Positions 4,009 to 12,296 of a DNA stretch of 44,717 bases are shown one piece after another. The stretch's first letter is position 1. The number at the start of each line of letters is the position of its first letter. Both the position numbers and the translations under genes were made by a program. The stretch comes from a phage, in the NCBI GenBank assembly GCA_036609835.1, contig GCA_036609835.1_4358.1. One strand, written 5' to 3'. The notes beneath the pieces were generated by a model, which saw only the letters and a list, made by a program, of their open reading frames with translations, searched no databases and was not told the DNA's origin.

Positions 4009-5406
4009 TTAACCGTCCACATTAAAGTCGATACGAGTGATATATTTACTACCCCACGCAGAATTCGCTTGGGGGATGGTGGCGTAACCGTCAACAGACG
4101 GAACGTTTACCACAGAGCCGTCTGAATATGTAATATCAATGCTTGTTGCACCGTTCATTACTACTTTTGCCGATGCCATAGGGCGTGCGGATGGTGATGC
4201 GTCGGTTACTATCGGCGATGTGGCAAACGGTGATTTTTCTATTTGCATCGCGCACACTAATATACCACTAACCCCGTCACCGACAAATGAACCAACGGCG
4301 GAGTTGTTGTACACCCATGGCGCTAAAAGCAGAGAAGACGCGCCACCCTGGCGTATAGCTACCGTTTCTGTAAATCGATACCAACCATTACCAAGCTCTG
4401 CTATATCGCTGCCGAGGGCGCCTGCGTAAATAACCCCTGTCGATAAGTTAGCAACACAATCCGCGATAAACCCAGCATCATCAGCGGCGCGAAGTCTCGC
4501 ATAATTATAACCATAGGCCTTAGCAACGTAACTGAGAGTGTATACATCACCCTCCGCAAAAGCGGAAGACACCGATTGATATACGAGATGGCTGTCGTTT
4601 GTCTGGTTCGGGACTAGCGAGAACGTACCACCGTTTAGAAATCCGTCAACTGCATCCGACACTGTTGTTCTAGTTTTAGTCCACGATGCGTCAGATAATT
4701 TCGACGATTTAATCAGGATATTACTGGACGCGGATTCCGGCGGAACACGTCCAACAGCAACCCCATCAATAAACGTAAGAGGCCATACATTAGCGGCGGA
4801 CTGCACAAGATTGCCGTTGCGGTTGATGTAATAAACCTGCGGCGCGTCATACACAATGCGGCTATCAAGAGTCGACGCCAGAAGGTTAATCGGTTGATAC
4901 CCGGCAGGCCCTTCATTGCTCCAGATGCGCGGGAACGTTGTCTCATAGTTCGCGTATATTTTCAGGAAACTGCCCAGGCAATCACCATAACAGCCATACA
5001 AATCTGGCAGATTGTTAATCAGACACTGGTTCTCGAGGTCCTGGAACGGTGATTTCTCAGCGGTTGCCGTGAAAGTAATTGTCCAGTTAATCCCGTCTTC
5101 AGTGGACTCGGCGACGGTGGATGTAATGGTGACTTGATAATCCTCAATACCCATGCCGAAGTCGTGCGCCATCCAGAAACTTGACGCGCCACCATCGACT
5201 TTCTCAAGGAACGACAGAAACGCCTGCCGCCCCATTGCGGATGTAATCAGGGTTACGCTTATTGGGAACACATCATAATACGTGTCACGGCCCTGACGCA
5301 CCCCGCCACCCGCTAAATCGACACTCCAGACGTTGTTACGTCTGGTCATTGAGTAGCCTTTTGATACCACCGGCTTAAGGCTACGTGGGAAATATAATTC
5401 GGTCAT
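4009..5406 (-). CDS. Minor tail / distal tail protein, 465 aa
   Basis: ORF immediately downstream of tape measure; start overlaps tape measure stop. Confidence 0.5.
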   Translation of the reverse strand: MTELYFPRSLKPVVSKGYSMTRRNNVWSVDLAGGGVRQGRDTYYDVFPISVTLITSAMGRQAFLSFLEKVDGGASSFWMAHDFGMGIEDYQVTITSTVAESTEDGINWTITFTATAEKSPFQDLENQCLINNLPDLYGCYGDCLGSFLKIYANYETTFPRIWSNEGPAGYQPINLLASTLDSRIVYDAPQVYYINRNGNLVQSAANVWPLTFIDGVAVGRVPPESASSNILIKSSKLSDASWTKTRTTVSDAVDGFLNGGTFSLVPNQTNDSHLVYQSVSSAFAEGDVYTLSYVAKAYGYNYARLRAADDAGFIADCVANLSTGVIYAGALGSDIAELGNGWYRFTETVAIRQGGASSLLLAPWVYNNSAVGSFVGDGVSGILVCAMQIEKSPFATSPIVTDASPSARPMASAKVVMNGATSIDITYSDGSVVNVPSVDGYATIPQANSAWGSKYITRIDFNVDG

Positions 5407-7745
5407 TATTTAAACCCCGGCGCATTTCTTGTGGCCTTGCGGGCCTTGCTAATCTTACTGTTGCTGTTCTGCAAAGATGCAGCAACTTGCTCTTCTATGA
5501 TGATACGCAAACGGCCTTCATCATCCTGCTCTGTGGATACGTTGCCGATCTGACTCGATGTGTTATTTACGATGGTAACATTAGACGGGCCGGAAGAAGA
5601 CCCGTTTTGCCCCATAATTTCTTTCATCTGCTGTGCGGTGCGTACACGTGACGCACCAGCGGGCATGATAACTTCTGGTTTACCGCGTTCTGCGATAGTA
5701 GAAGCCTGCCCCGCGGATAACTGTCCGCCCTGTTCACGTGCGGACCTGATAGCGGAAATCTGCGCCATACCCGCCCCAACGGCAGCAGCGGCAGCTACAG
5801 GAGCCAGGAACGGGCCAACTACAGGGATAGCCGCTGTTGACTTATACGCCTCAATAGCCGCGGTGTACGTGGCTATAGTGGCCTGCACGATAGCGAATGC
5901 CTTGTACGCGCCAGAAGCCTCGCCCAAAGCCGAACCGATGTTTGAGGCCATGTTACCGAAGGCGGTTGCCGTTGCGTCGGCACGCTTGGTTGCGTATTGC
6001 TCATTGATGGCGTTAAGCGCGGCCTGATACTGCTTCTCACTAATAAGACCCTGCTCACGGTACTTATCGGCTACCGCCAGTTTCTGCTGTTCCTGGATGT
6101 CGAGAAGCTCAAGCTCAGTAGCGTTCTGGCCCATAATCTGAGCCATGAAGTCGTCGCCTTTCTGCTTTTTCTCCTGCCGTTCTTTCTCGCGCTTATCCAA
6201 TTCTTCCTGACGTGCGGTGTCCGCCTCCAGCATAATCTGCGTCTTGGCGTTCTCGTATTGCTGGTCGCTAAGAAGCTGATTGCCGTAAAACTCCTGTAGC
6301 TTGGTTAACTGCTGTTCCTGGTTGGCTTCTATTTTCTGGAATACGTCATCATTGAGATGAATTGACTGATAGTAGAAATCCTCCGCGGCTTTCTTCTGGC
6401 GCTCGAACGCATCCGCTGCTTTCTTAGCGGCTTTTGCACCCGCGCTATCATCTTCAGATCCGCCGCCGGTACCAGTTACCTTAAATTTACTAAGCCCTTC
6501 TTCCTTAGCGGCTTCTTTGTCGATGTCATACGCTGCGCGTTTAAGCGCGACGATATTTTGCTGAGCCTCCACCTGTTCGCGGAAACTTTTACGTGTCAGG
6601 TCCGCAACGTCGCGCTGAGTATCCAGTGCCATCCCCAGCTGGAAGTTAATATTTTTTGCTACGTCTACGGATTCCCCTGGTGTGAAGGCGGCCTTAACCA
6701 GCCGACCGGCATCCTGCGCCCCTTTAACCATATCCTCAAAGAAGCGCTCCATCGCGGTAAATTCTTCCGCGATGAAATCGAGCGCATCGGCGGCTGATTC
6801 CGCTATGGTTGTCGCCGTTTGTTCGCCGCTATCCGTGATACTTTTGCTACTAAAATCCCAAAGCTCATTTAGCCCGTTTATCGCATCACCCACGAAACCA
6901 AATGCCGCGTCGAATGACATCTCTATTGCGCTTCCTACTTCCGACGCGATGTCACCCCACATACGCATCTCTGCGGCAAGTTCACCGGATGCAACCTGTG
7001 CGTTAAGTTCCTGGATTAAATCATCGATGTATCGGATAGGTTCGGCGAGCGCACCAACATCAAGACTGGTAGCCAGTGTCATTTTTAACTGCGACCATGA
7101 GTCGCTGGCACTGGCGATGGCCCCGTTAAGTGTGTTGGCCTGGTCCGCCATAGCCCCCGCGAAGTTTACGTTACCGATGTTGAGCAGGTATTGCTCGATG
7201 TCGGCAGCGCTCTTCTTAACTACCGTAGTAGTACCCTGGAATGTAAATTCAACATCGTTTTTGTTCTGTTTGGCCTTGATACCAAATTCTTTAAGGCGCT
7301 CAAATTCAAAAGTACTAGCGTCTGCAACCGCCTCAATCATCTGATTCAGGTCTTTACCCATAGCAGCGGCGGTGTTTCCGTAGGAACGCAACGCTTCTTC
7401 TGACGGTGTAAGACCAAGCGCCACAAGTTTACGGAATCCCTCTACCGCCTGTTCAAGGCCATACGGAGTGTCGCGCGCGAAGTCTTGCAGGATGCTTAAC
7501 GCCTGTCTTGCACCCTGCGTGCTTCCGGTTAGTGTTTTCAGGCTGGCGGACATCTTGTCCAGTTGCCGTTGGGATTCTACCAGTTCCTGTGCGGCCTTGT
7601 AAGCGGTAGCGGCGACGATGGAAGCGAGGCCCGCTACCGCAGCTCCGGCTACCTTTGCAGACTTGGAAAGGTTATCAAGACGGTCTGATGTAGCTTTCGC
7701 GCCTTGCTCTGATACTTTTACAACTAAACTAGCTACATCAGCCAT
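5406..7745 (-). CDS. Tail tape measure protein, 779 aa
   Basis: Long Ala/Gln/Glu-rich predicted coiled-coil protein downstream of two chaperone-like ORFs. Confidence 0.8.
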   Translation of the reverse strand: MADVASLVVKVSEQGAKATSDRLDNLSKSAKVAGAAVAGLASIVAATAYKAAQELVESQRQLDKMSASLKTLTGSTQGARQALSILQDFARDTPYGLEQAVEGFRKLVALGLTPSEEALRSYGNTAAAMGKDLNQMIEAVADASTFEFERLKEFGIKAKQNKNDVEFTFQGTTTVVKKSAADIEQYLLNIGNVNFAGAMADQANTLNGAIASASDSWSQLKMTLATSLDVGALAEPIRYIDDLIQELNAQVASGELAAEMRMWGDIASEVGSAIEMSFDAAFGFVGDAINGLNELWDFSSKSITDSGEQTATTIAESAADALDFIAEEFTAMERFFEDMVKGAQDAGRLVKAAFTPGESVDVAKNINFQLGMALDTQRDVADLTRKSFREQVEAQQNIVALKRAAYDIDKEAAKEEGLSKFKVTGTGGGSEDDSAGAKAAKKAADAFERQKKAAEDFYYQSIHLNDDVFQKIEANQEQQLTKLQEFYGNQLLSDQQYENAKTQIMLEADTARQEELDKREKERQEKKQKGDDFMAQIMGQNATELELLDIQEQQKLAVADKYREQGLISEKQYQAALNAINEQYATKRADATATAFGNMASNIGSALGEASGAYKAFAIVQATIATYTAAIEAYKSTAAIPVVGPFLAPVAAAAAVGAGMAQISAIRSAREQGGQLSAGQASTIAERGKPEVIMPAGASRVRTAQQMKEIMGQNGSSSGPSNVTIVNNTSSQIGNVSTEQDDEGRLRIIIEEQVAASLQNSNSKISKARKATRNAPGFK

Positions 7746-8097
7746 CGTTTCTACCCTCGAAAATAGCGTCTAAGCTCATGATGATGTCAGATTCAAACAT
7801 GCCTATATTCTGGCCTGAAACGGTGCTATATGCCACTAAATCCGACCATCTTAACTGTTCACGCGGATACATCTTGATGCCATCATCGTCCACTCGGCGG
7901 GTGAATTTGATTTCCCTGTACTTCTCGAAGGTGGTTAATAGCTCAGGGGGGCATTCTGGCCCGGTGTCCTGCGTTGCTTCCGGCGCGTCTTGCATAACCC
8001 CCATAGCAATTAGCGCGGCTTTATGCCCGTCGGAGATACTGTCAAACTCCCGCCGTTTGTGGCGAGTTATGAAGTTCCAACGGGCAAACTGGAGCAA
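7738..8097 (-). CDS. Tail assembly chaperone, T-like segment; probably expressed as a -1 frameshift extension of the upstream G-like ORF
   Basis: No ATG or RBS; frame stays open about 50 nt into the 3' end of ORF 8103..8519 in the -1 frame; lies directly upstream of tape measure. Confidence 0.5.
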   Translation of the reverse strand: MLQFARWNFITRHKRREFDSISDGHKAALIAMGVMQDAPEATQDTGPECPPELLTTFEKYREIKFTRRVDDDGIKMYPREQLRWSDLVAYSTVSGQNIGMFESDIIMSLDAIFEGRNDG

Positions 8098-8102
8098 CGC
8101 GT

Positions 8103-8519
8103 CTACTTTTCCTGCAATTGGTGAAGCTGTTCGTTGTGGAAAACAACAACGTGTTCAGCGAGGCGTTTATATTGTGAAAAAAGAGTATTCAGGTTCTCTT
8201 TATTAAATTCATCGTCGAGACTCCAACCGTTAACCAGTTCAAGTGCTAACTGGCGGTTAAGGTCCGTCGCGGCGTCTTCCATCTTAATGTTATATTCCGA
8301 GAAATCTTTCAGTTCCTCGCATTTATCACGAAGCGGCTTCAGTTTACCTAACGACGCGCGGTACGCCAGGGTAAATGCACGCATGGCTTTAACCGCAACG
8401 TCTGCCTCCGGTGAAACAACGTTCAGCCACTCCCCTGAATCGGTGCCGTCTTTCAGTGGGATCGGCATACGGGCGCCTTTTTCTGCCTCAGCTTCGTAAT
8501 AAAAATCAGAAAGTTTCAT
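8103..8519 (-). CDS. Tail assembly chaperone (lambda G-like), 138 aa
   Basis: Acidic protein upstream of tape measure with AAAGGA RBS; ends ...CAGGAAAAGTAG, overlapped by an open -1 frame. Confidence 0.6.
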   Translation of the reverse strand: MKLSDFYYEAEAEKGARMPIPLKDGTDSGEWLNVVSPEADVAVKAMRAFTLAYRASLGKLKPLRDKCEELKDFSEYNIKMEDAATDLNRQLALELVNGWSLDDEFNKENLNTLFSQYKRLAEHVVVFHNEQLHQLQEK

Positions 8520-8626
8520 TCTTTAATCCTTTGGTTAAGAGGTTACGGGTTAAGGTTAATGCGCCAGACGGGAACCACCCGCTTTTCGTGTGCGACACTA
8601 GGCGCAAAATTATTCTATCACATTAC

Positions 8627-8655
8627 TTGCACACCCCAATATAATAGTGTACTAT
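8627..8655 (+). promoter_or_regulatory. Sigma70-type promoter TTGCAC-N17-TACTAT with AATAG-N4-CTATT palindrome, driving the plus-strand insert operon
   Basis: ttgcacaccccaatataatagtgtactat; 19-mer gcacaccccaatataatag is repeated exactly at 18182; same motif in reverse at 29839-29867. Confidence 0.6.
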
Positions 8656-8696
8656 TCACTTACACCAACGATGTTATCCCAAACAGGAGCTACACC

Positions 8697-8888
8697 ATGA
8701 CGGGTATTACTATGTTCTTCTTAATCATTATCGTTTTAGTTTATTTTATTCCATTTCTCGTGGCGCATATGCGCGACCATAAAGCGAAATTAGCGATATT
8801 CATGGCTAATCTGTTTCTTGGATGGGTTCTGCTGCCGTGGGTATTTATTTTAATCTGGGCTTGCAACTCGAATGTCAAAGAGAAGTGA
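8697..8888 (+). CDS. Small membrane protein of the superinfection-immunity (Imm-like) family, 63 aa
   Basis: ATG 8697 after AAACAGGAG; MTGITMFFLIIIVLVYFIPFLVAHMRDHKAKLAIFMANLFLGWVLLPWVFILIWA matches the YF.P..A..R.H....I...N..LGW...W...L.WA signature recalled from memory. Confidence 0.6.
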   Translation: MTGITMFFLIIIVLVYFIPFLVAHMRDHKAKLAIFMANLFLGWVLLPWVFILIWACNSNVKEK

Positions 8889-8925
8889 GCTAGTATAGGA
8901 CAAATCCTAAACACGAGGAATAAAC

Positions 8926-10056
8926 ATGGCCCGGAAGAAAATAACCGACGAACAGTTGCAGGAAGAATTGAACGCCGGTATGAAGAATGTAGATATCGCC
9001 CGTAAATACGGCATCTCAGACCGCGTTATTCGTATCCGTAAAGCGAAGCTGGCTAAGAAAGGCGTAGGCCACGGGCGCGACGTTAGTCACCTTGTACCAG
9101 ACGGTTACAAGATTAAAGGAACGTCGTCCCTGGTGGACGAGTTCGGCAACACTAAGTTGCAATGGGTTAAGACCGACGCTGATGCCGAACGTCAGGTTGA
9201 ATTGATGAAAGCCGTAATAGAGGGCATGAAGTCAGAGATTACGCCCGTTGCGCCTGTTAAACCGGCACGAGCCAAACGTGACGATAAACTACTCAATCTT
9301 TACACGGTATCTGATTTCCATCTCGGTATGCTGGCATGGGCCGATGAGAGCGGCGACGACTGGGACATGAAGATTGCAGAAGACCTGTTCTCTCGGTGGT
9401 TCGACGCGGCGTTTCAGAAAGCACCGGATGCAGGAACAGGAGTTATTAACCTGCTTGGGGACTTCGCACACTTCGATAGTCTTGATGCCGTTACCCCCGA
9501 GTCGCGCCATGTATTAGATGCGGATACTCGCTATCAGAAACTGGTACGTTACATGATTCGTATGGTCCGCCGTGTTGTTGATATGGCGCTGGTTAAGCAT
9601 CACACAGTAAAACTTTTAATCGTTCAAGGTAACCACGACCCTGTTGGCTCCGTATGGCTTGCCGAAATGTTCACGGTTTTATACTCAAACGACAGCCGAG
9701 TGATTGTTGATACGTCGCCGGATGTTTACAAGATGGTGCAACACGGCAAAACGACGCTGTTCTTCCATCACGGGCATAAAGCACGATTCGACGCTATCGA
9801 ACCGGTTATGATTGCCAAGTTCCGTAAAGCGTTCGGCGAGAGTGTTTACAGCTACGCCCACGTAGGCCATCTGCACCACCAGAAGATTGTAGAAAGCCGT
9901 AACATGATTGTTGAGCAACACCGCACCTTAGCGGCTAAAGACGCCTACGCCTCTCGCGGCGGATGGATGTCGGGCCGCAGTGCAAATGTAATTACTTATA
10001 GCGCCGAATATGGCGAGGTCGCACGTTTAACTATTTCACCGGAGATGCTGGGATGA
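8926..10056 (+). CDS. N-terminal HTH domain fused to a calcineurin-like metallophosphoesterase, 376 aa
   Basis: HTH-like NVDIARKYGISDRVIRIRKAK; phosphoesterase motifs SDFHLG, LLGDFAH, VQGNHD, FFHHGH, HVGHLHH in canonical order. Confidence 0.6.
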   Translation: MARKKITDEQLQEELNAGMKNVDIARKYGISDRVIRIRKAKLAKKGVGHGRDVSHLVPDGYKIKGTSSLVDEFGNTKLQWVKTDADAERQVELMKAVIEGMKSEITPVAPVKPARAKRDDKLLNLYTVSDFHLGMLAWADESGDDWDMKIAEDLFSRWFDAAFQKAPDAGTGVINLLGDFAHFDSLDAVTPESRHVLDADTRYQKLVRYMIRMVRRVVDMALVKHHTVKLLIVQGNHDPVGSVWLAEMFTVLYSNDSRVIVDTSPDVYKMVQHGKTTLFFHHGHKARFDAIEPVMIAKFRKAFGESVYSYAHVGHLHHQKIVESRNMIVEQHRTLAAKDAYASRGGWMSGRSANVITYSAEYGEVARLTISPEMLG

Positions 10057-10541
10057 AAGATATTGTAATTTTCGATTTAGACGGGACATTGGCCGACGGT
10101 ACCAATCGCTTACACCTGTTACCAAAAGATAACTACGGAGAAACGTGGGCGTGGAAGCCATTTAACATGGCCTGCAAAGATGACGCTCCGATATACGACA
10201 ATATCCATTTGTGTAGCGTACTGTGGCATTCCGGACTTACTATAATTATCCTTACCGGGCGAAGTGATGACGCTGAGGAGGAGACTCGCGAATGGTTACG
10301 AGAGAATAACGTTAGGTTTGACACGCTAATCATGCGCAGCAAACACGACAACAGAAAAGACATCGTAATTAAAGAAGAGGTGTTGCGTGCTTTCGGACTG
10401 GAAAGAATCTTGTGTGCGTTCGACGACTCTCCAGCGGTAATAAAGCATTTCCGTGACCTCGGCATAACCGCACACGCAGTTACCGAATACGACTGTAACG
10501 GGAACTCTACACACTTAAAACCACACGGGAGCGATAAATAA
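10053..10541 (+). CDS. HAD-family phosphatase resembling the 3'-phosphatase domain of T4 polynucleotide kinase-phosphatase, 162 aa
   Basis: DxDGT motif (IVIFDLDGTLADG), GRSDD, RKDIVIKEEVL and FDDSPAVIKHFRDLGI align by eye with T4 Pnkp C-terminal motifs; ATGA start/stop overlap. Confidence 0.6.
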   Translation: MKDIVIFDLDGTLADGTNRLHLLPKDNYGETWAWKPFNMACKDDAPIYDNIHLCSVLWHSGLTIIILTGRSDDAEEETREWLRENNVRFDTLIMRSKHDNRKDIVIKEEVLRAFGLERILCAFDDSPAVIKHFRDLGITAHAVTEYDCNGNSTHLKPHGSDK

Positions 10542-11095
10542 TGGCTAAGGTAATTATTCTTAATGGCCCTGCGGGTTGCGGGAAAGACACGCTTGCTATG
10601 GCGCTGGTAGAAATGGGCTTTGCGAAAGGAACTACCAGTTTCAAGAATCCAATGTTCAATATTGCTTTGGCAGCGTTAGGCCAGGATGCTTACCACGAAT
10701 TTCTCGACGGCTACGACGACCGGGCGCGGAAAGAAAAACCCGAGGGTTTTCTTAATGGGTTGTCCCGCCGCCGGTTAATGATTGCCATTTCTGAGCAATT
10801 CATTAAACCGGTATTCGGCGATGATTATTTCGGTAAGTATCTTGCTGAAAACTTGCCTGACGGCGACGAAGTTTTTGTAGTGTCCGATGGTGGATTCGCC
10901 AGTGAAGTTGCCCCTATCGTCGCCGCGGGGCATGACGTGCGAATCGTCCGCCTCCATCGTGACGGCTATACGTTCATCTGCGATAGCCGTGGCTATCTGT
11001 ACGATGTTAGTGGTGTAAAAGATTACGACACCTACATCATACCGGGTGACGTTAAATCGAACGTTATAGACATTGCTTTAAAATTAGGTTTGTAA
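10541..11095 (+). CDS. Deoxynucleoside monophosphate kinase-like P-loop kinase (T4 gp1-like), 184 aa
   Basis: Walker A GPAGCGKDT; RRRLMIAISEQF and VFVVSDGGFASEV...VRIVRLHRDG resemble T4 dNMP kinase blocks recalled from memory. Confidence 0.55.
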   Translation: MAKVIILNGPAGCGKDTLAMALVEMGFAKGTTSFKNPMFNIALAALGQDAYHEFLDGYDDRARKEKPEGFLNGLSRRRLMIAISEQFIKPVFGDDYFGKYLAENLPDGDEVFVVSDGGFASEVAPIVAAGHDVRIVRLHRDGYTFICDSRGYLYDVSGVKDYDTYIIPGDVKSNVIDIALKLGL

Positions 11096-11126
11096 GAAAA
11101 AGGCCCCGAAAGGGGCCTTAGTTTTA
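11096..11126. terminator. Bidirectional rho-independent terminator
   Basis: aaaaaggccccgaaaggggccttagtttt: GC stem with A-run upstream and T-run downstream; between convergent kinase and major tail genes. Confidence 0.7.
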
Positions 11127-12296
11127 TGCGTAGGTGATACGTTGAATTACGATAGACGACTGGTACTGATTGCCGGTAGCCTGGCCTTCAATGGACTGAG
11201 TGATTGACTCAGGCCCACCAATCTCAGGTGTAACCGCCGTAAGCTCTGCACGTTTCAAACTGAAAGACATAGCCCCGTTTACCCCTGCCAGAATAGAGTT
11301 AATCTCTACCTGCTGCTCGTTGATAAACTTCTGAATCATCGCCATGTCGTACAGCTTGCCAGAGATAGAGAATGTGTTAGCTGCGCGGCTACGTTCCACA
11401 AAAGCCACATTAGTGTTGCCTAGTTCGAACTGCGCGGACGCGCTGTTATCGTTGGTGATAGTCAGGCTATCGCAACGCAACGGGGTAGCGCCGTCGAACA
11501 CGGAAACGTCAACCGAAGAGAACGGCTCATCACCAAAAGTAACAGATGAGAAGTTGGAACCGGTCGGCGGCGTAGTGAGAATCTCCTGACTGCGACCGAT
11601 GAATGGGAAGCTGCCAGTTACCATCGCGTTAACAGCCTGCTCGATGGTAAAACCAGAAACTTCCACGCCTTTGGTTAACGTGTACGCGTCAGTACCGCCG
11701 CACTGGCCTTTGTACCAGGTAAGGATAGAGAACGTCTTACACGTGTTACCGGTTTCCAGCGTGTCGCCAGTTTTAGCCTTACTAGTTTTTGTCTCGGTGG
11801 TCAGGGTGTGTTGGATGCCCGCACCAGTAACAACCGTAGCCGTTACTGCAGTAACAATAAATGGTTTTGCGTTATCGCCTGTTAAATCGGTAAACGCAAT
11901 CAGGTCGCCTACCCCAACTCCGTCAGTGATAAAGCTGCCGGTGGCACGTGTGAACGTCTTGCCAGCCGGTGCGACGGTAATCGATAGCCCTGACAGAGAT
12001 ACGCCAGCCTGCCACGTAGAGCCTAAAGCCCCGGCTAGCCAGTCATCCTGGCTTTTAGAGCTAAGCTCAATAGCGTATTCTCCGCTAACCTGCTTGTTAC
12101 CGGTGCGGATGGATGTGGTTTCTCGGCTGCCGTCAAGTTCGTTGGAGGTCAGCGTGTCGCGGGTAATGGCAGGAACGCCGCCCGTGTTGCGCAACGGCGA
12201 CCATACCGGGTTAGCCGGTGTTACGCCCGGGGTCACTTCCGCCACATAGAATTGCGCGGTATTCGCGCCCTTAAAAGGAGTTGTAGCCATATTCAC
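11124..12296 (-). CDS. Major tail protein (putative), 390 aa
   Basis: Ser/Thr/Gly-rich ORF between tail completion genes and chaperones, followed by a strong terminator. Confidence 0.55.
   Translation of the reverse strand: MNMATTPFKGANTAQFYVAEVTPGVTPANPVWSPLRNTGGVPAITRDTLTSNELDGSRETTSIRTGNKQVSGEYAIELSSKSQDDWLAGALGSTWQAGVSLSGLSITVAPAGKTFTRATGSFITDGVGVGDLIAFTDLTGDNAKPFIVTAVTATVVTGAGIQHTLTTETKTSKAKTGDTLETGNTCKTFSILTWYKGQCGGTDAYTLTKGVEVSGFTIEQAVNAMVTGSFPFIGRSQEILTTPPTGSNFSSVTFGDEPFSSVDVSVFDGATPLRCDSLTITNDNSASAQFELGNTNVAFVERSRAANTFSISGKLYDMAMIQKFINEQQVEINSILAGVNGAMSFSLKRAELTAVTPEIGGPESITQSIEGQATGNQYQSSIVIQRITYA

What the first reader, a model, noticed from the sequence alone, without database searches (positions are those of the whole stretch)
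7738..8519. Probable programmed -1 frameshift linking the two tail assembly chaperone ORFs
The downstream ORF (7738..8097) has no ATG or RBS, and its frame is open about 50 nt upstream into the 3' end of the G-like ORF in the -1 frame, mirroring lambda G/GT. The G-like ORF ends ...CAGGAAAAGTAG, which resembles the lambda GGGAAAG slip site but is not a canonical XXXYYYZ heptamer.
Basis: partly seen in the sequence, partly recalled or inferred. Interest (0 to 1): 0.4.

Follow-up and report, generated by a model that had tools for sequence, protein, structure and literature searches.

The report
Phage tail-chaperone frameshift with distal helix
This phage very probably makes a fused tail-assembly chaperone by a ribosome slipping back one base at the last lysine codon of the first gene, and related phages show a conserved long-range RNA helix just downstream that probably drives the slip.

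Summary
The window is Escherichia phage vB_EcoS-22664BS2 (Kagunavirus, Guernseyvirinae). The G-like chaperone ORF (8519..8103, minus strand) ends CAG GAA AAG TAG. The T-like ORF lies in the -1 frame, open from 8154, and runs into the tape-measure gene.

In 40 non-redundant relatives (down to about 42% protein identity):
- G always ends NNA_AAG, with the stop immediately after.
- Lys138 is AAG 40/40, although other conserved Lys, Ala, Leu and Val codons vary freely.
- The -1 frame can be open for as little as 7 nt.
- The window's TTG is CTG in most relatives.
- Some relatives carry canonical A_AAA_AAG or G_GGA_AAG at the same place.

The expected fusion is 260 aa (29.9 kDa).

New here: the frozen GCGYUG segment 5 nt after the slip site is the 5' arm of a long-range helix. 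Its 3' arm lies 129 nt downstream of the stop in the window's clade and 203 nt in others. Compensatory changes support it, and RNAalifold finds it independently in both clades.

I read this as a known kind of event (lambda G/GT-type -1 frameshift) with a non-canonical slip site and a previously undescribed distal stimulator. All evidence is comparative; nothing was tested experimentally.

The parts
8103..8519 (-). G-like tail assembly chaperone ORF: 138 aa (15.9 kDa), ATG 8519 with AAGGA Shine-Dalgarno, stop TAG 8105..8103.
   Evidence: ORF list. Pfam PF08748 Phage_TAC_4, E 3e-8. PHROG 15027/313 'tail assembly chaperone'.
8106..8112 (-). Slip site G_GAA_AAG. The core tetramer is A_AAG at 8109..8106. 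tRNA-Lys re-pairs from AAG to AAA.
   Evidence: Sequence. AAG 40/40 and an A in the third position of the preceding codon 40/40 in non-redundant relatives, against AAA 27/AAG 13 at a control Lys column. Heptamer types across relatives. The minimum -1 overlap is 7 nt.
8101..8105 (-). 5-nt spacer UAGAC between the slip site and the helix. It contains the G stop codon (8105..8103).
   Evidence: The stop is always UAR (TAG 29, TAA 11, never TGA) and directly follows AAG in 40/40. In L082 the stop is one codon later, but the 5-nt spacing to the helix is kept.
8091..8100 (-). 5' arm of the long-range helix, GCGUUGCUCC. It contains the TTG (8097..8095) that gene callers use as the T start.
   Evidence: Ala141 is GCG 39/39 and Leu142 is YUG 40/40, while control Ala/Leu columns use 4-6 codons. 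The window's MFE fold pairs it with 7981..7971. RNAalifold consensus.
7971..7981 (-). 3' arm of the long-range helix, GGAAGCAACGC (A7979 bulged). It lies in the protein-variable linker of T (codons 181-184).
   Evidence: Complement search. CA.RCG.C is invariant although the amino acids vary between A/T/P, A/T and Q/R/L/P. Pair 19-142 is CG in 11 and UA in 7 of 18 sequences in the RNAalifold table; the pair count, which merges identical rows, gives CG:11, UA:6 over 17 distinct rows. The 8-mer AGCAACGC occurs only twice in the 44.7-kb window, and those two copies are the two arms.
7982..8090 (-). Domain enclosed by the helix. In the window it is predicted as a branched structure. Its internal helices are not conserved across the family.
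   Evidence: Fold of 8109..7960: -58.3 kcal/mol, z -3.33, 0/200 shuffles fold as well. The internal helices are only 43-79% paired across the family.
7738..8106 (-). T segment read in the -1 frame after the slip: 122 codons from GUA 8106..8104 to TGA 7740..7738. G8106 is read twice.
   Evidence: Translation. Pfam PF23812 Phage_TAC_18, E 1.5e-18. PHROG 15027 profile positions 135-259.
7738..8519 (-). Predicted GT fusion, join(8519..8106, 8106..7738): 260 aa, 29.9 kDa, junction ...LQEK|VDALLQFAR.
   Evidence: The 259-position PHROG 15027 profile spans both ORFs with the junction at K138|V. Joined CDSs are annotated in relatives fFiEco03, Smarc3 and AH01. Mass.
8110..8113 (-). AGGA, an SD-like tetramer 12 nt upstream of TTG 8097. 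This is the rival independent start signal, and it overlaps the slip heptamer.
   Evidence: Annotated as an RBS in phage Shashou. Absent in the GCA/UCA/GUA_AAG lineages.
5406..7745 (-). Tape measure protein gene (779 aa). Its ATG 7745 overlaps the end of T.
   Evidence: PHROG 1538, E 9e-208. ORF list.

Best explanation
A minority of ribosomes translating the G-like chaperone gene slip back one nucleotide at G_GAA_AAG (8112..8106). tRNA-Lys re-pairs from AAG to AAA, and tRNA-Glu can re-pair from GAA to GGA with a central G.U. These ribosomes then read GUA GAC GCG UUG... in the -1 frame down to 7738. The product is a 260-aa GT fusion (...LQEK|VDALLQFAR...). The majority terminate at UAG and release the 138-aa G protein.

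By analogy with lambda gpG/gpGT, G and the G part of GT would coat the tape measure protein and the T part would recruit the tail tube protein. This functional step is inferred, not shown.

The slip is probably stimulated by an RNA helix whose 5' arm (8100..8091) starts 5 nt after the slip site. That is about +12 when AAG occupies the A site, which is the classical geometry. Its 3' arm (7981..7971) lies about 115 nt further on and closes a roughly 130-nt domain. Zero-frame ribosomes stop inside the spacer, so the T region is mostly free of ribosomes and the long-range helix can re-form between passages.

What is shown by comparison: the frame arrangement, the frozen slip site, the helix and its covariation. 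What is inferred: that the slip happens, how efficient it is, and that the helix stimulates it.

My sub-confidences: the GT fusion is made by -1 slippage at A_AAG, about 0.88; the helix is a real conserved RNA feature, about 0.9; the helix acts as the frameshift stimulator, about 0.65.
For: Identity and context:
- The window is 100% identical to Kagunavirus MZ234010.
- TAC Pfam and PHROG hits cover both ORFs, and one 259-position PHROG profile spans the junction at K138|V.
- The tape measure gene follows immediately.

Slip site:
- In 40 relatives below 95% nt identity, K138 is AAG 40/40 and V139 is GUA 40/40.
- Codon 137 is always NNA: GAA 26, GCA 10, AAA 2, UCA 1, GUA 1.
- Control conserved K/A/L/V columns use 2-6 codons.
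- Synonymous diversity falls to 0.09 at codons 136-142, against 0.53 overall.
- The heptamer is G_GAA_AAG in 26/26 GAA lineages. Canonical A_AAA_AAG occurs in 2 of the 40 representatives (L092, L099) and G_GGA_AAG in L067, which is outside the 40-representative set.
- The -1 frame opens 7-205 nt before the stop. T-frame conservation jumps from 0.2-0.4, with stops present, to 1.0 exactly at the slip.
- TTG 8097 is CTG in 33/40. The first possible start is at least 10 codons downstream in 32/40.
- PMBT14 uses T_TTT_TTC followed by the homologous LDGLYQYARAEF.

Literature:
- A_AAG is the most shift-prone tetramer in E. coli but sits near background without a 3' structure: 0.15% alone, up to 5.6% with the IS3 pseudoknot (PMC4066793).
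- NNA_AAG sites are used by IS1222 and B. subtilis cdd (PMC5009743).

Helix:
- A perfect complement to the frozen segment lies at a fixed clade-specific offset, +129 or +203, and is up to 16 bp long.
- RNAalifold gives it as the only (clade A) or main (clade B) consensus structure.
- It is 84.5% and 89.7% paired, against 20-51% when the partner is slid by 1-3 columns.
- Compensatory pairs: 19-142 (C-G to U-A), 24-211 (U-A to C-G), 22-213 and 25-210.
- The strict Watson-Crick helix length is a median of 8, against 4.5 for control arms. In 21/40 representatives fewer than 1% of control positions match it.
- In the window, pair probability is about 1.0 in RNA contexts extending to 141-301 nt. MFE is -58.3 kcal/mol, z -3.33.
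- The 5-nt spacing is kept even where the stop moves by one codon (L082).
Against: - No protein or reporter data exist for any member of this phage group in the literature I could search.
- The Shashou genome paper explicitly notes 'no canonical slippery sequence'.
- G_GAA_AAG is not an X_XXY_YYZ heptamer, and tetramers alone are barely shifty.
- In the window's own clade, a TTG with an AGGA 12 nt upstream exists, so some independent T synthesis cannot be excluded.
- The helix arms lie in coding sequence, and in clade B in conserved peptide motifs (ALYEF, KFIQR). Part of the pairing conservation could therefore be inherited protein constraint. Several compensatory changes are shared by related sequences, so there are few independent events.
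- The helix was found by searching for a complement to a motif already known to be conserved.
- In a 401-nt folding context the closing stem loses out to alternatives (P about 0.01), and in a 501-nt context it has P about 0.54.
- A long-range stem of 8-10 bp is modest for a stimulator.
Confidence: 0.82

Rival explanations
1. The frameshift happens at A_AAG, but the stimulus is the adjacent stop codon (a 'shifty stop'). tRNA-Lys sits in the P site and slips while the UAG/UAA in the A site waits for a release factor. The long-range helix then has another job, such as mRNA stability or processing, or masking the TTG.
For: - The stop follows AAG directly in 40/40 representatives and is always UAR, never UGA, although GUG would also encode Val139.
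- Slip sites in other phage chaperone genes lie on average 26-36 nt from the stop (PMC10885494), so this adjacency is unusual.
- Shifty-stop effects are established (Weiss et al. 1987, cited in PMC5009743).
Against: - In L082 the stop is one codon further on, while the A_AAG-5 nt-helix geometry is kept.
- The helix 5' arm is fixed relative to the slip site while its 3' partner has moved between clades. This is what a positional requirement at the ribosome entry channel predicts.
- The two stimuli are not mutually exclusive.
Confidence: 0.2
2. There is no frameshift. T is made as a separate 119-aa protein, either by initiation at TTG 8097 using the AGGA at 8113..8110 or by termination-reinitiation after the G stop 5 nt upstream.
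For: - TTG and AGGA are present in the window and invariant in its close relatives.
- Shashou, AG11, Eta and Bas74 annotate a separate ORF starting at this codon.
Against: - The codon is CTG in 33/40 lineages and never ATG or GTG, so it is kept as Leu rather than as a start.
- AGGA is absent in the GCA/UCA/GUA lineages.
- This model gives no reason for AAG 40/40 or NNA 40/40, nor for canonical heptamers appearing at the same spot.
- The TTG is buried in the 5' arm of the helix.
- In PMBT14 the homologous T motif lies upstream of the G stop, so it is reachable only by a frameshift.
- The AGGA-TTG spacing of 12 nt is poor.
Confidence: 0.06
3. RNA polymerase slips on the A run (GGAAAAG) and makes mRNAs with one extra A, which encode the fusion.
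For: A run of four A residues sits at the junction. Transcriptional slippage is a known way to make such fusions (PMC5009743).
Against: - The run is only A4, and only A3 in the GCA/UCA/GUA_AAG lineages. From general knowledge, productive slippage needs about 7 or more identical bases.
- An RNA helix at a fixed 5-nt spacing is a feature that acts on the ribosome.
Confidence: 0.02

Closest known systems
Bacteriophage lambda gpG/gpGT programmed -1 frameshift (Levin, Hendrix & Casjens 1993; Xu, Hendrix & Duda 2004, 2013, 2014; as summarised in PMC5009743)
   Same: - Two chaperone ORFs lie immediately upstream of the tape measure gene.
- The second ORF is in the -1 frame and has no start of its own.
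- The slip occurs on a ...A_AAG lysine codon near the end of G.
- A minor fusion product is expected.
- One relative (L067) even has lambda's exact G_GGA_AAG.
   Different: - The heptamer is G_GAA_AAG, so P-site re-pairing is only near-cognate.
- The zero-frame stop directly abuts the slip site.
- A conserved long-range helix starts 5 nt downstream. Lambda's site is, from my memory of Levin et al., independent of flanking stimulators.
- No sequence homology to lambda G/T was shown here; the Pfam families are TAC_4 and TAC_18.
- The chaperone genes are separated from the tube gene by a 2.6-kb opposite-strand module.
A_AAG tetramer / NNA_AAG -1 frameshift sites with 3' structures in bacteria: IS1222 G_CGA_AAG, B. 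subtilis cdd A_CGA_AAG, and IS3 constructs (PMC5009743; PMC4066793)
   Same: - Slippage of a single tRNA-Lys from AAG to AAA.
- Efficiency depends on a downstream structure placed about 5-6 nt away.
- The identity of the preceding NNA codon modulates efficiency.
   Different: - In those cases the stimulators are local: a pseudoknot or hairpin, or an upstream SD in cdd.
- Here the 3' arm is 115-190 nt away, and no upstream SD is conserved.
Elaborate or long-range frameshift stimulators: IS911 three-way junction, IS3411 loop-loop interaction 44-104 nt away, the phage T7 gene 10 element more than 200 nt 3', luteovirus 4-kb pairing (PMC5009743)
   Same: [quoted passage not shown] The window's predicted fold is a branched domain closed by that helix.
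   Different: - This case is in a dsDNA phage tail chaperone gene.
- The 3' arm has been relocated between clades (+129 or +203) while the 5' arm stayed in place.
- It has not been tested experimentally.

Membership tests
G/GT-type tail assembly chaperone pair expressed by -1 PRF (Xu et al. 2004 definition) | Two consecutive ORFs located between the major tail (tube) gene and the tape measure gene | tested here: met
   G and T lie directly upstream of the tape measure gene, and the T stop overlaps the tape measure ATG. The tube gene (PF18906) is upstream at 12296..11124, but a 2.6-kb opposite-strand module intervenes.
G/GT-type tail assembly chaperone pair expressed by -1 PRF (Xu et al. 2004 definition) | The second ORF is in the -1 frame, overlaps the 3' end of the first, and lacks a conserved start of its own | tested here: met
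   The -1 frame is open for 49 nt in the window and 7-205 nt in relatives. TTG is replaced by CTG in 33/40. The first start is at least 10 codons downstream in 32/40.
G/GT-type tail assembly chaperone pair expressed by -1 PRF (Xu et al. 2004 definition) | Canonical X_XXY_YYZ slippery heptamer in the overlap | tested here: not met
   The window has G_GAA_AAG. The only T run in the overlap (GTTGTTGTTTTCC) is not conserved. The canonical forms A_AAA_AAG and G_GGA_AAG occur at the same position in a few relatives. The minimal Z_ZZN requirement (A_AAG) is met in 40/40.
G/GT-type tail assembly chaperone pair expressed by -1 PRF (Xu et al. 2004 definition) | Both parts belong to tail assembly chaperone protein families | tested here: met
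   G matches PF08748 Phage_TAC_4 (34.2 bits; cut-off 21.1). T matches PF23812 Phage_TAC_18 (67.1 bits; cut-off 27). PHROG 15027 spans both.
G/GT-type tail assembly chaperone pair expressed by -1 PRF (Xu et al. 2004 definition) | A fusion protein is made at a low, fixed ratio to G and is needed for tail assembly | not testable with these tools
   No proteomic or genetic data were found for Guernseyvirinae. The Eta proteome paper mentions neither gene.
Tetramer (Z_ZZN) -1 PRF with a 3' RNA stimulator (IS3/IS1222 type) | A_AAG (or another shift-prone tetramer) in the zero frame | tested here: met
   A_AAG is at 8109..8106. It is invariant in 40/40, with synonymous alternatives never used.
Tetramer (Z_ZZN) -1 PRF with a 3' RNA stimulator (IS3/IS1222 type) | A stable RNA structure beginning about 5-9 nt 3' of the motif | tested here: met
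   The helix starts 5 nt after AAG. It is the RNAalifold consensus in both clades and shows covariation. The partner is distal rather than local, and local 45-nt windows are not unusually stable.
Tetramer (Z_ZZN) -1 PRF with a 3' RNA stimulator (IS3/IS1222 type) | Measured dependence of frameshifting on the motif and the structure | not testable with these tools
   This needs reporter assays.
Curated Rfam frameshift elements or other RNA families | A match to a covariance model at the gathering score | tested here: not met
   Only two sub-threshold chance hits in 7600..8600: int-alpA at 17.3 bits (gathering score 35.8) and sR32 at 15.8 bits (gathering score 40).

The most novel reading that the evidence does not exclude
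The long-range helix is a genuine, required stimulator of the G/GT frameshift. This phage subfamily has kept its 5' arm fixed 5 nt from a weak A_AAG site while relocating the 3' arm (+129 or +203 nt, with lineages such as L086 carrying several candidate partners). That would make it, as far as I could find, the first structure-dependent tail-chaperone frameshift with a distal stimulator, and a natural series for studying how distal stimulators evolve and set the G:GT ratio.
Probability: 0.55. Interest if true: 0.62.

Novelty: new variant of a known kind. Interest (0 to 1): 0.5.

Why it matters
For annotation: the deposited record of this phage lists the two genes as hypothetical proteins and truncates T to 85 aa. 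Records of its relatives disagree with each other. Some join the ORFs, some call a TTG or CTG start, and one paper states there is no slippery sequence. The comparative evidence here settles where the join belongs (K138|V139, G8106 read twice) for several hundred Guernseyvirinae genomes.

For recoding biology: tail-chaperone frameshifts are usually treated as a heptamer-only signal, and automatic predictors miss non-canonical sites. This family shows a minimal A_AAG site coupled to a covarying long-range helix inside a ribosome-poor downstream ORF. The 3' arm differs in position between clades, and canonical heptamers occur in a few lineages. That makes testable how slip-site strength and stimulator strength trade off to fix a chaperone ratio.

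Tried and rejected
1. T-run GTTGTTGTTTTCC in the overlap as the slip site. Rejected: it is not conserved (GTAGTCGTATTCC in Salmonella relatives) and lies outside the 7-16-nt minimal overlaps.

2. Local downstream hairpin or pseudoknot. RNAalifold on +100 nt gave nothing. The 45-nt post-slip windows are no more stable than the gene background (mean percentile 0.43).

3. The window's 110-nt MFE structure as a family structure. It is only 64% paired, and its closing helix rests on Ala GCN codons, so I dropped it in favour of the +129 partner.

4. Upstream SD-like stimulator. None is conserved 10-14 nt upstream. The GGA is part of the heptamer and is absent in the GCA lineages.

5. Natural in-frame G-T fusions. 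The large protein search returned only 5 hits, none of them a real fusion, and two are chimeric artefacts.

6. AlphaFold2 on the fusion without an alignment. pLDDT was 38.4, which is unusable, so I ran no fold search. Alignments containing locus-derived sequences are not accepted by that tool.

7. Solved-structure sequence search. No hit below E 0.1.

8. Promoter and terminator scan of 7600..9000. Nothing above the shuffled expectation.

9. Anany et al. 2015 (PMID 25663216), cited in the Shashou record for a predicted frameshift in the type phages, is not held in the library.

10. A first local-folding script timed out.


Full report
**Identity and layout**

The window is 100% identical over the queried region to Escherichia phage vB_EcoS-22664BS2 (MZ234010; Kagunavirus, Guernseyvirinae). 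The relevant genes are on the minus strand, in this order:
- a tail tube gene, 12296..11124 (PF18906);
- a 2.6-kb block of opposite-strand genes;
- a 138-aa ORF, 8519..8103 (PF08748 Phage_TAC_4; PHROG 15027/313 'tail assembly chaperone');
- a second ORF in another frame ending at 7738 (PF23812 Phage_TAC_18);
- the 779-aa tape measure gene, 7745..5406.

A single 259-position PHROG profile (15027) matches the first ORF over positions 1-138 and the second frame over positions 135-259. Some database members are therefore fused proteins joined at K138|V.

**Checking the observation**

The first ORF ends CAA TTG CAG GAA AAG TAG, with the stop at 8105..8103. The second ORF is in the -1 frame, and that frame is open from 8154, 49 nt before the stop.

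There is no ATG before 8004/7995. The ORF list starts it at TTG 8097, and an AGGA lies 12 nt upstream (8113..8110). The fusion would be 260 aa and 29.9 kDa, not about 255 aa.

Public annotation is inconsistent:
- This phage's own record calls both genes hypothetical and starts the second at ATG 7995.
- Shashou annotates the AGGA and TTG, and its paper says there is 'no canonical slippery sequence' (PMC6776780).
- fFiEco03, Smarc3 and Pantoea phage AH01 annotate a joined frameshift product.

**Comparative test of the frameshift**

tblastn with the hypothetical fusion found 516 phage records. In 495 of them one place covers at least 80% of the query. In all listed rows except SS3e (an old, error-prone record) and two partial Acinetobacter-phage matches (H89, H90), the match falls in two pieces, which means two frames. 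Identity ranges down to 42% in Pantoea phage AH01 and 27% in Pseudomonas phage PMBT14.

I collected 85 loci from GenBank and IMG/VR and reduced them to 40 representatives below 95% nt identity. The results from this set:
- G ends NNA_AAG followed directly by UAG (29) or UAA (11) in all 40.
- Lys138 is AAG 40/40. The codon before it always ends in A: GAA 26, GCA 10, AAA 2, UCA 1, GUA 1.
- Conserved Lys, Ala, Leu and Val columns elsewhere in the same alignment use 2-6 different codons, for example K205 AAA 27/AAG 13.
- A sliding measure of synonymous differences falls from 0.53 overall to 0.09 at codons 136-142.
- The upstream limit of the open -1 frame varies from 7 to 205 nt. The 7-nt cases (C_GCA_AAG preceded by a -1-frame TAA) leave no other possible site.
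- Read in the T frame, amino-acid conservation is 0.2-0.4 with stop codons upstream of the site, and 1.0 from the site onward: K-V-x-A-L-Y/F-x-F/Y-A-x-W.
- The window's TTG is CTG in 33/40 and never ATG or GTG. It is conserved as leucine, not as a start.
- In 32/40 the first ATG/GTG/TTG is at least 10 codons beyond this conserved N-terminal motif.

Three further observations fit a slip site at this spot:
- Every GAA lineage has G before it, giving G_GAA_AAG in 26/26. This includes the rare Ser codon TCG.
- L092 and L099 have the canonical A_AAA_AAG, and L067 has lambda's G_GGA_AAG.
- In PMBT14 the homologous T motif (LDGLYQYARAEF) lies inside the overlap, three codons after a canonical T_TTT_TTC.

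Homologues with G proteins of 134-150 aa end the same way.

**Why a stimulator was expected**

In E. coli, A_AAG is the most shift-prone tetramer. Without a 3' structure it is at background (0.147% against 0.112%), and with the IS3 pseudoknot it reaches 5.6% (PMC4066793). NNA_AAG sites are used by IS1222 and occur in B. subtilis cdd (PMC5009743).

The codon freeze also extended beyond what the slip site and the overlapping stop explain. Ala141 is GCG 39/39 and Leu142 is YUG 40/40. This GCGYUG starts 5 nt after AAG, which is where the 5' arm of a stimulator would begin.

My first searches found no partner:
- RNAalifold over +100 nt returned only a trivial 3-bp hairpin, with no informative consensus structure.
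- Local 45-nt windows were not unusually stable.
- The window's 110-nt MFE structure did not hold across the family.

**The long-range helix**

A direct search for complements to the frozen segment found a perfect partner in almost every representative, at one of two fixed offsets from the G stop.

At +129:
- the window's clade: GCGUUGCU with AGCAACGC;
- Jerseyvirus L047: GCGUUGUUUC with GAAACAACGC;
- the Bas74 clade: CGCGCUGUAC with GUGCAGCGCG.

At +203:
- the NTEC3, Eta, AG11, AH01 and other clades: GCGCUGUAUGAAUU with AAUUCAUACAGCGC, up to 16 bp.

RNAalifold, run without any constraint on alignments long enough to include the partner, returns this helix as the only consensus structure in clade A (7 bp; pair 19-142 is C-G in 11 and U-A in 7 of 18 sequences). 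In clade B it is the main consensus structure (12 bp).

Counting pairs for the full helices gives:
- clade A: 84.5% of cells paired, against 21-51% when the 3' partner is slid by 1-3 columns;
- clade B: 89.7% paired, against 20-49% for the slid controls.

Both-sided changes occur at pairs 19-142, 23-138, 24-137 and 25-136 in clade A, and at 22-213, 24-211 and 25-210 in clade B. In L092/L099, Tyr-to-His and Glu-to-Lys changes in the 5' arm are matched by ATA-to-ATG and TTC-to-TTT changes in the 3' arm.

The clade A 3' arm lies in a linker that is variable at the protein level (A/T/P, A/T, Q/R/L/P), yet it keeps CA.RCG.C invariant. In clade B, Gln208 is CAG 21/21.

As a null test, I measured the longest strictly Watson-Crick helix starting at the true position. 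The median is 8 bp, against a mean of 4.5 for all other start positions in the same genes. In 21/40 representatives fewer than 1% of control positions reach the true value.

In the window:
- The 8-mer AGCAACGC occurs only twice in 44.7 kb, and the two copies are the two arms.
- RNA 8109..7960 folds to -58.3 kcal/mol (z -3.33; 0 of 200 shuffles fold as well). The closing stem pairs 8100..8091 with 7981..7971, with A7979 bulged.
- The closing pairs have probability about 1.0 in RNAs of 141, 201 and 301 nt starting at 8100. They compete with alternatives when 401-501 nt are folded. That longer stretch includes the translated tape measure start.

In L082 the G stop is one codon further downstream, but the A_AAG-5 nt-helix spacing is unchanged. 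No Rfam family matches the region.

**Mechanism proposed**

With GAA in the P site and AAG in the A site, the first helix pair is at about +12, at the entrance of the mRNA channel. This is the classical -1 geometry. tRNA-Lys re-pairs to AAA, and tRNA-Glu can re-pair to GGA with a central G.U. Reading then continues GUA GAC GCG UUG.

Non-shifted ribosomes terminate within the spacer. The T region therefore carries few ribosomes, and a helix spanning 115-190 nt can re-form. The TTG that gene callers use lies inside the 5' arm.

The role of the products (G and GT coating the tape measure protein, T recruiting the tube protein) is inferred from lambda (PMC5009743).

Long-range or elaborate stimulators have precedents in IS911, IS3411, T7 gene 10 and the luteoviruses. 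I found none described for a tail chaperone frameshift.

**Rivals**

- A purely stop-codon-driven P-site slip remains possible and may add to the helix effect. Against it stand L082 and the fixed 5' arm.
- Independent or re-initiated T synthesis from TTG 8097 does not explain the frozen A_AAG, the CTG in most lineages, or PMBT14.
- Transcriptional slippage is unlikely on a run of three or four A residues.

**Limits**

- All evidence is comparative or thermodynamic.
- The arms are coding sequence, and related sequences share changes, so the number of independent compensatory events is small (roughly five or six by eye).
- The helix was found after I noticed the frozen motif.
- Efficiency cannot be estimated.
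- Structure prediction of the fusion failed (pLDDT 38.4), and the large protein search was uninformative.

**Verdict**

The event is a known kind, and some relatives' records already annotate it. What is new is the definition of the non-canonical cassette (NNA_AAG, a 5-nt spacer holding the stop, then a helix) and the covarying distal helix with clade-specific 3' arms.

Noticed in passing
window 8559..11095 (+ strand): A 2.6-kb opposite-strand module sits between the tail tube gene and the chaperone genes. It holds an Imm-like superinfection immunity gene, a metallophosphoesterase, a polynucleotide kinase 3'-phosphatase and a dNMP-kinase-like gene. The G/T/tape-measure genes are therefore cut off from the upstream structural operon and need their own promoter. 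The module is conserved in relatives.
   Followed up: partly
window 7738..7995 and 8103..8519; MZ234010 features 22664BS2_041/042: The deposited annotation of this phage calls both chaperone genes 'hypothetical protein'. It starts the second at the internal ATG 7995 (85 aa), which drops the conserved N-terminal 37 residues of T.
   Followed up: yes
window 8103..8105 and the equivalent position in 40 relatives: The G stop is UAG or UAA and never UGA, even though UGA would turn the overlapping -1 codon into GUG, which is still Val. Either the identity of the stop or the GUA codon itself appears to be under selection.
   Followed up: partly
L086, L087, L096 (IMG/VR contigs), offsets +44, +122 and +203 from the G stop: These lineages carry two or three segments complementary to the 5' arm: CAGCGY at +44, CGCGCAGCGC at +122, and the 11-15-nt arm at +203. 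They may be intermediates showing how the 3' arm moved between positions.
   Followed up: no
L092, L099 (IMG/VR contigs): These lineages combine the canonical, highly shift-prone A_AAA_AAG with a 13-bp long-range helix. That predicts a much higher GT:G ratio than elsewhere in the family, unless something else compensates.
   Followed up: no
L025/L037 (Salmonella phage SS3e, AY730274.2): The G ORF is interrupted (100 aa) and tblastn aligns the fusion in one piece at 70% identity. These are most likely sequencing errors in an old record rather than a natural fusion.
   Followed up: partly
window 8030..8090 with 8020..8045 (inner part of the folded domain): The window's own fold contains a strong inner stem, GCCCGUUGG with CCGACGGGC. 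It is formed by the FARW and SDGH codons and is not maintained in other clades (43-79% paired). It is probably lineage-specific or a by-product of conserved protein motifs.
   Followed up: partly
P0004, P0005 (metagenome proteins): Two 165-aa database proteins are chimeras. One joins a G N-terminus to unrelated sequence. The other joins the phosphatase N-terminus to a T fragment. These are assembly artefacts, not fusions.
   Followed up: no
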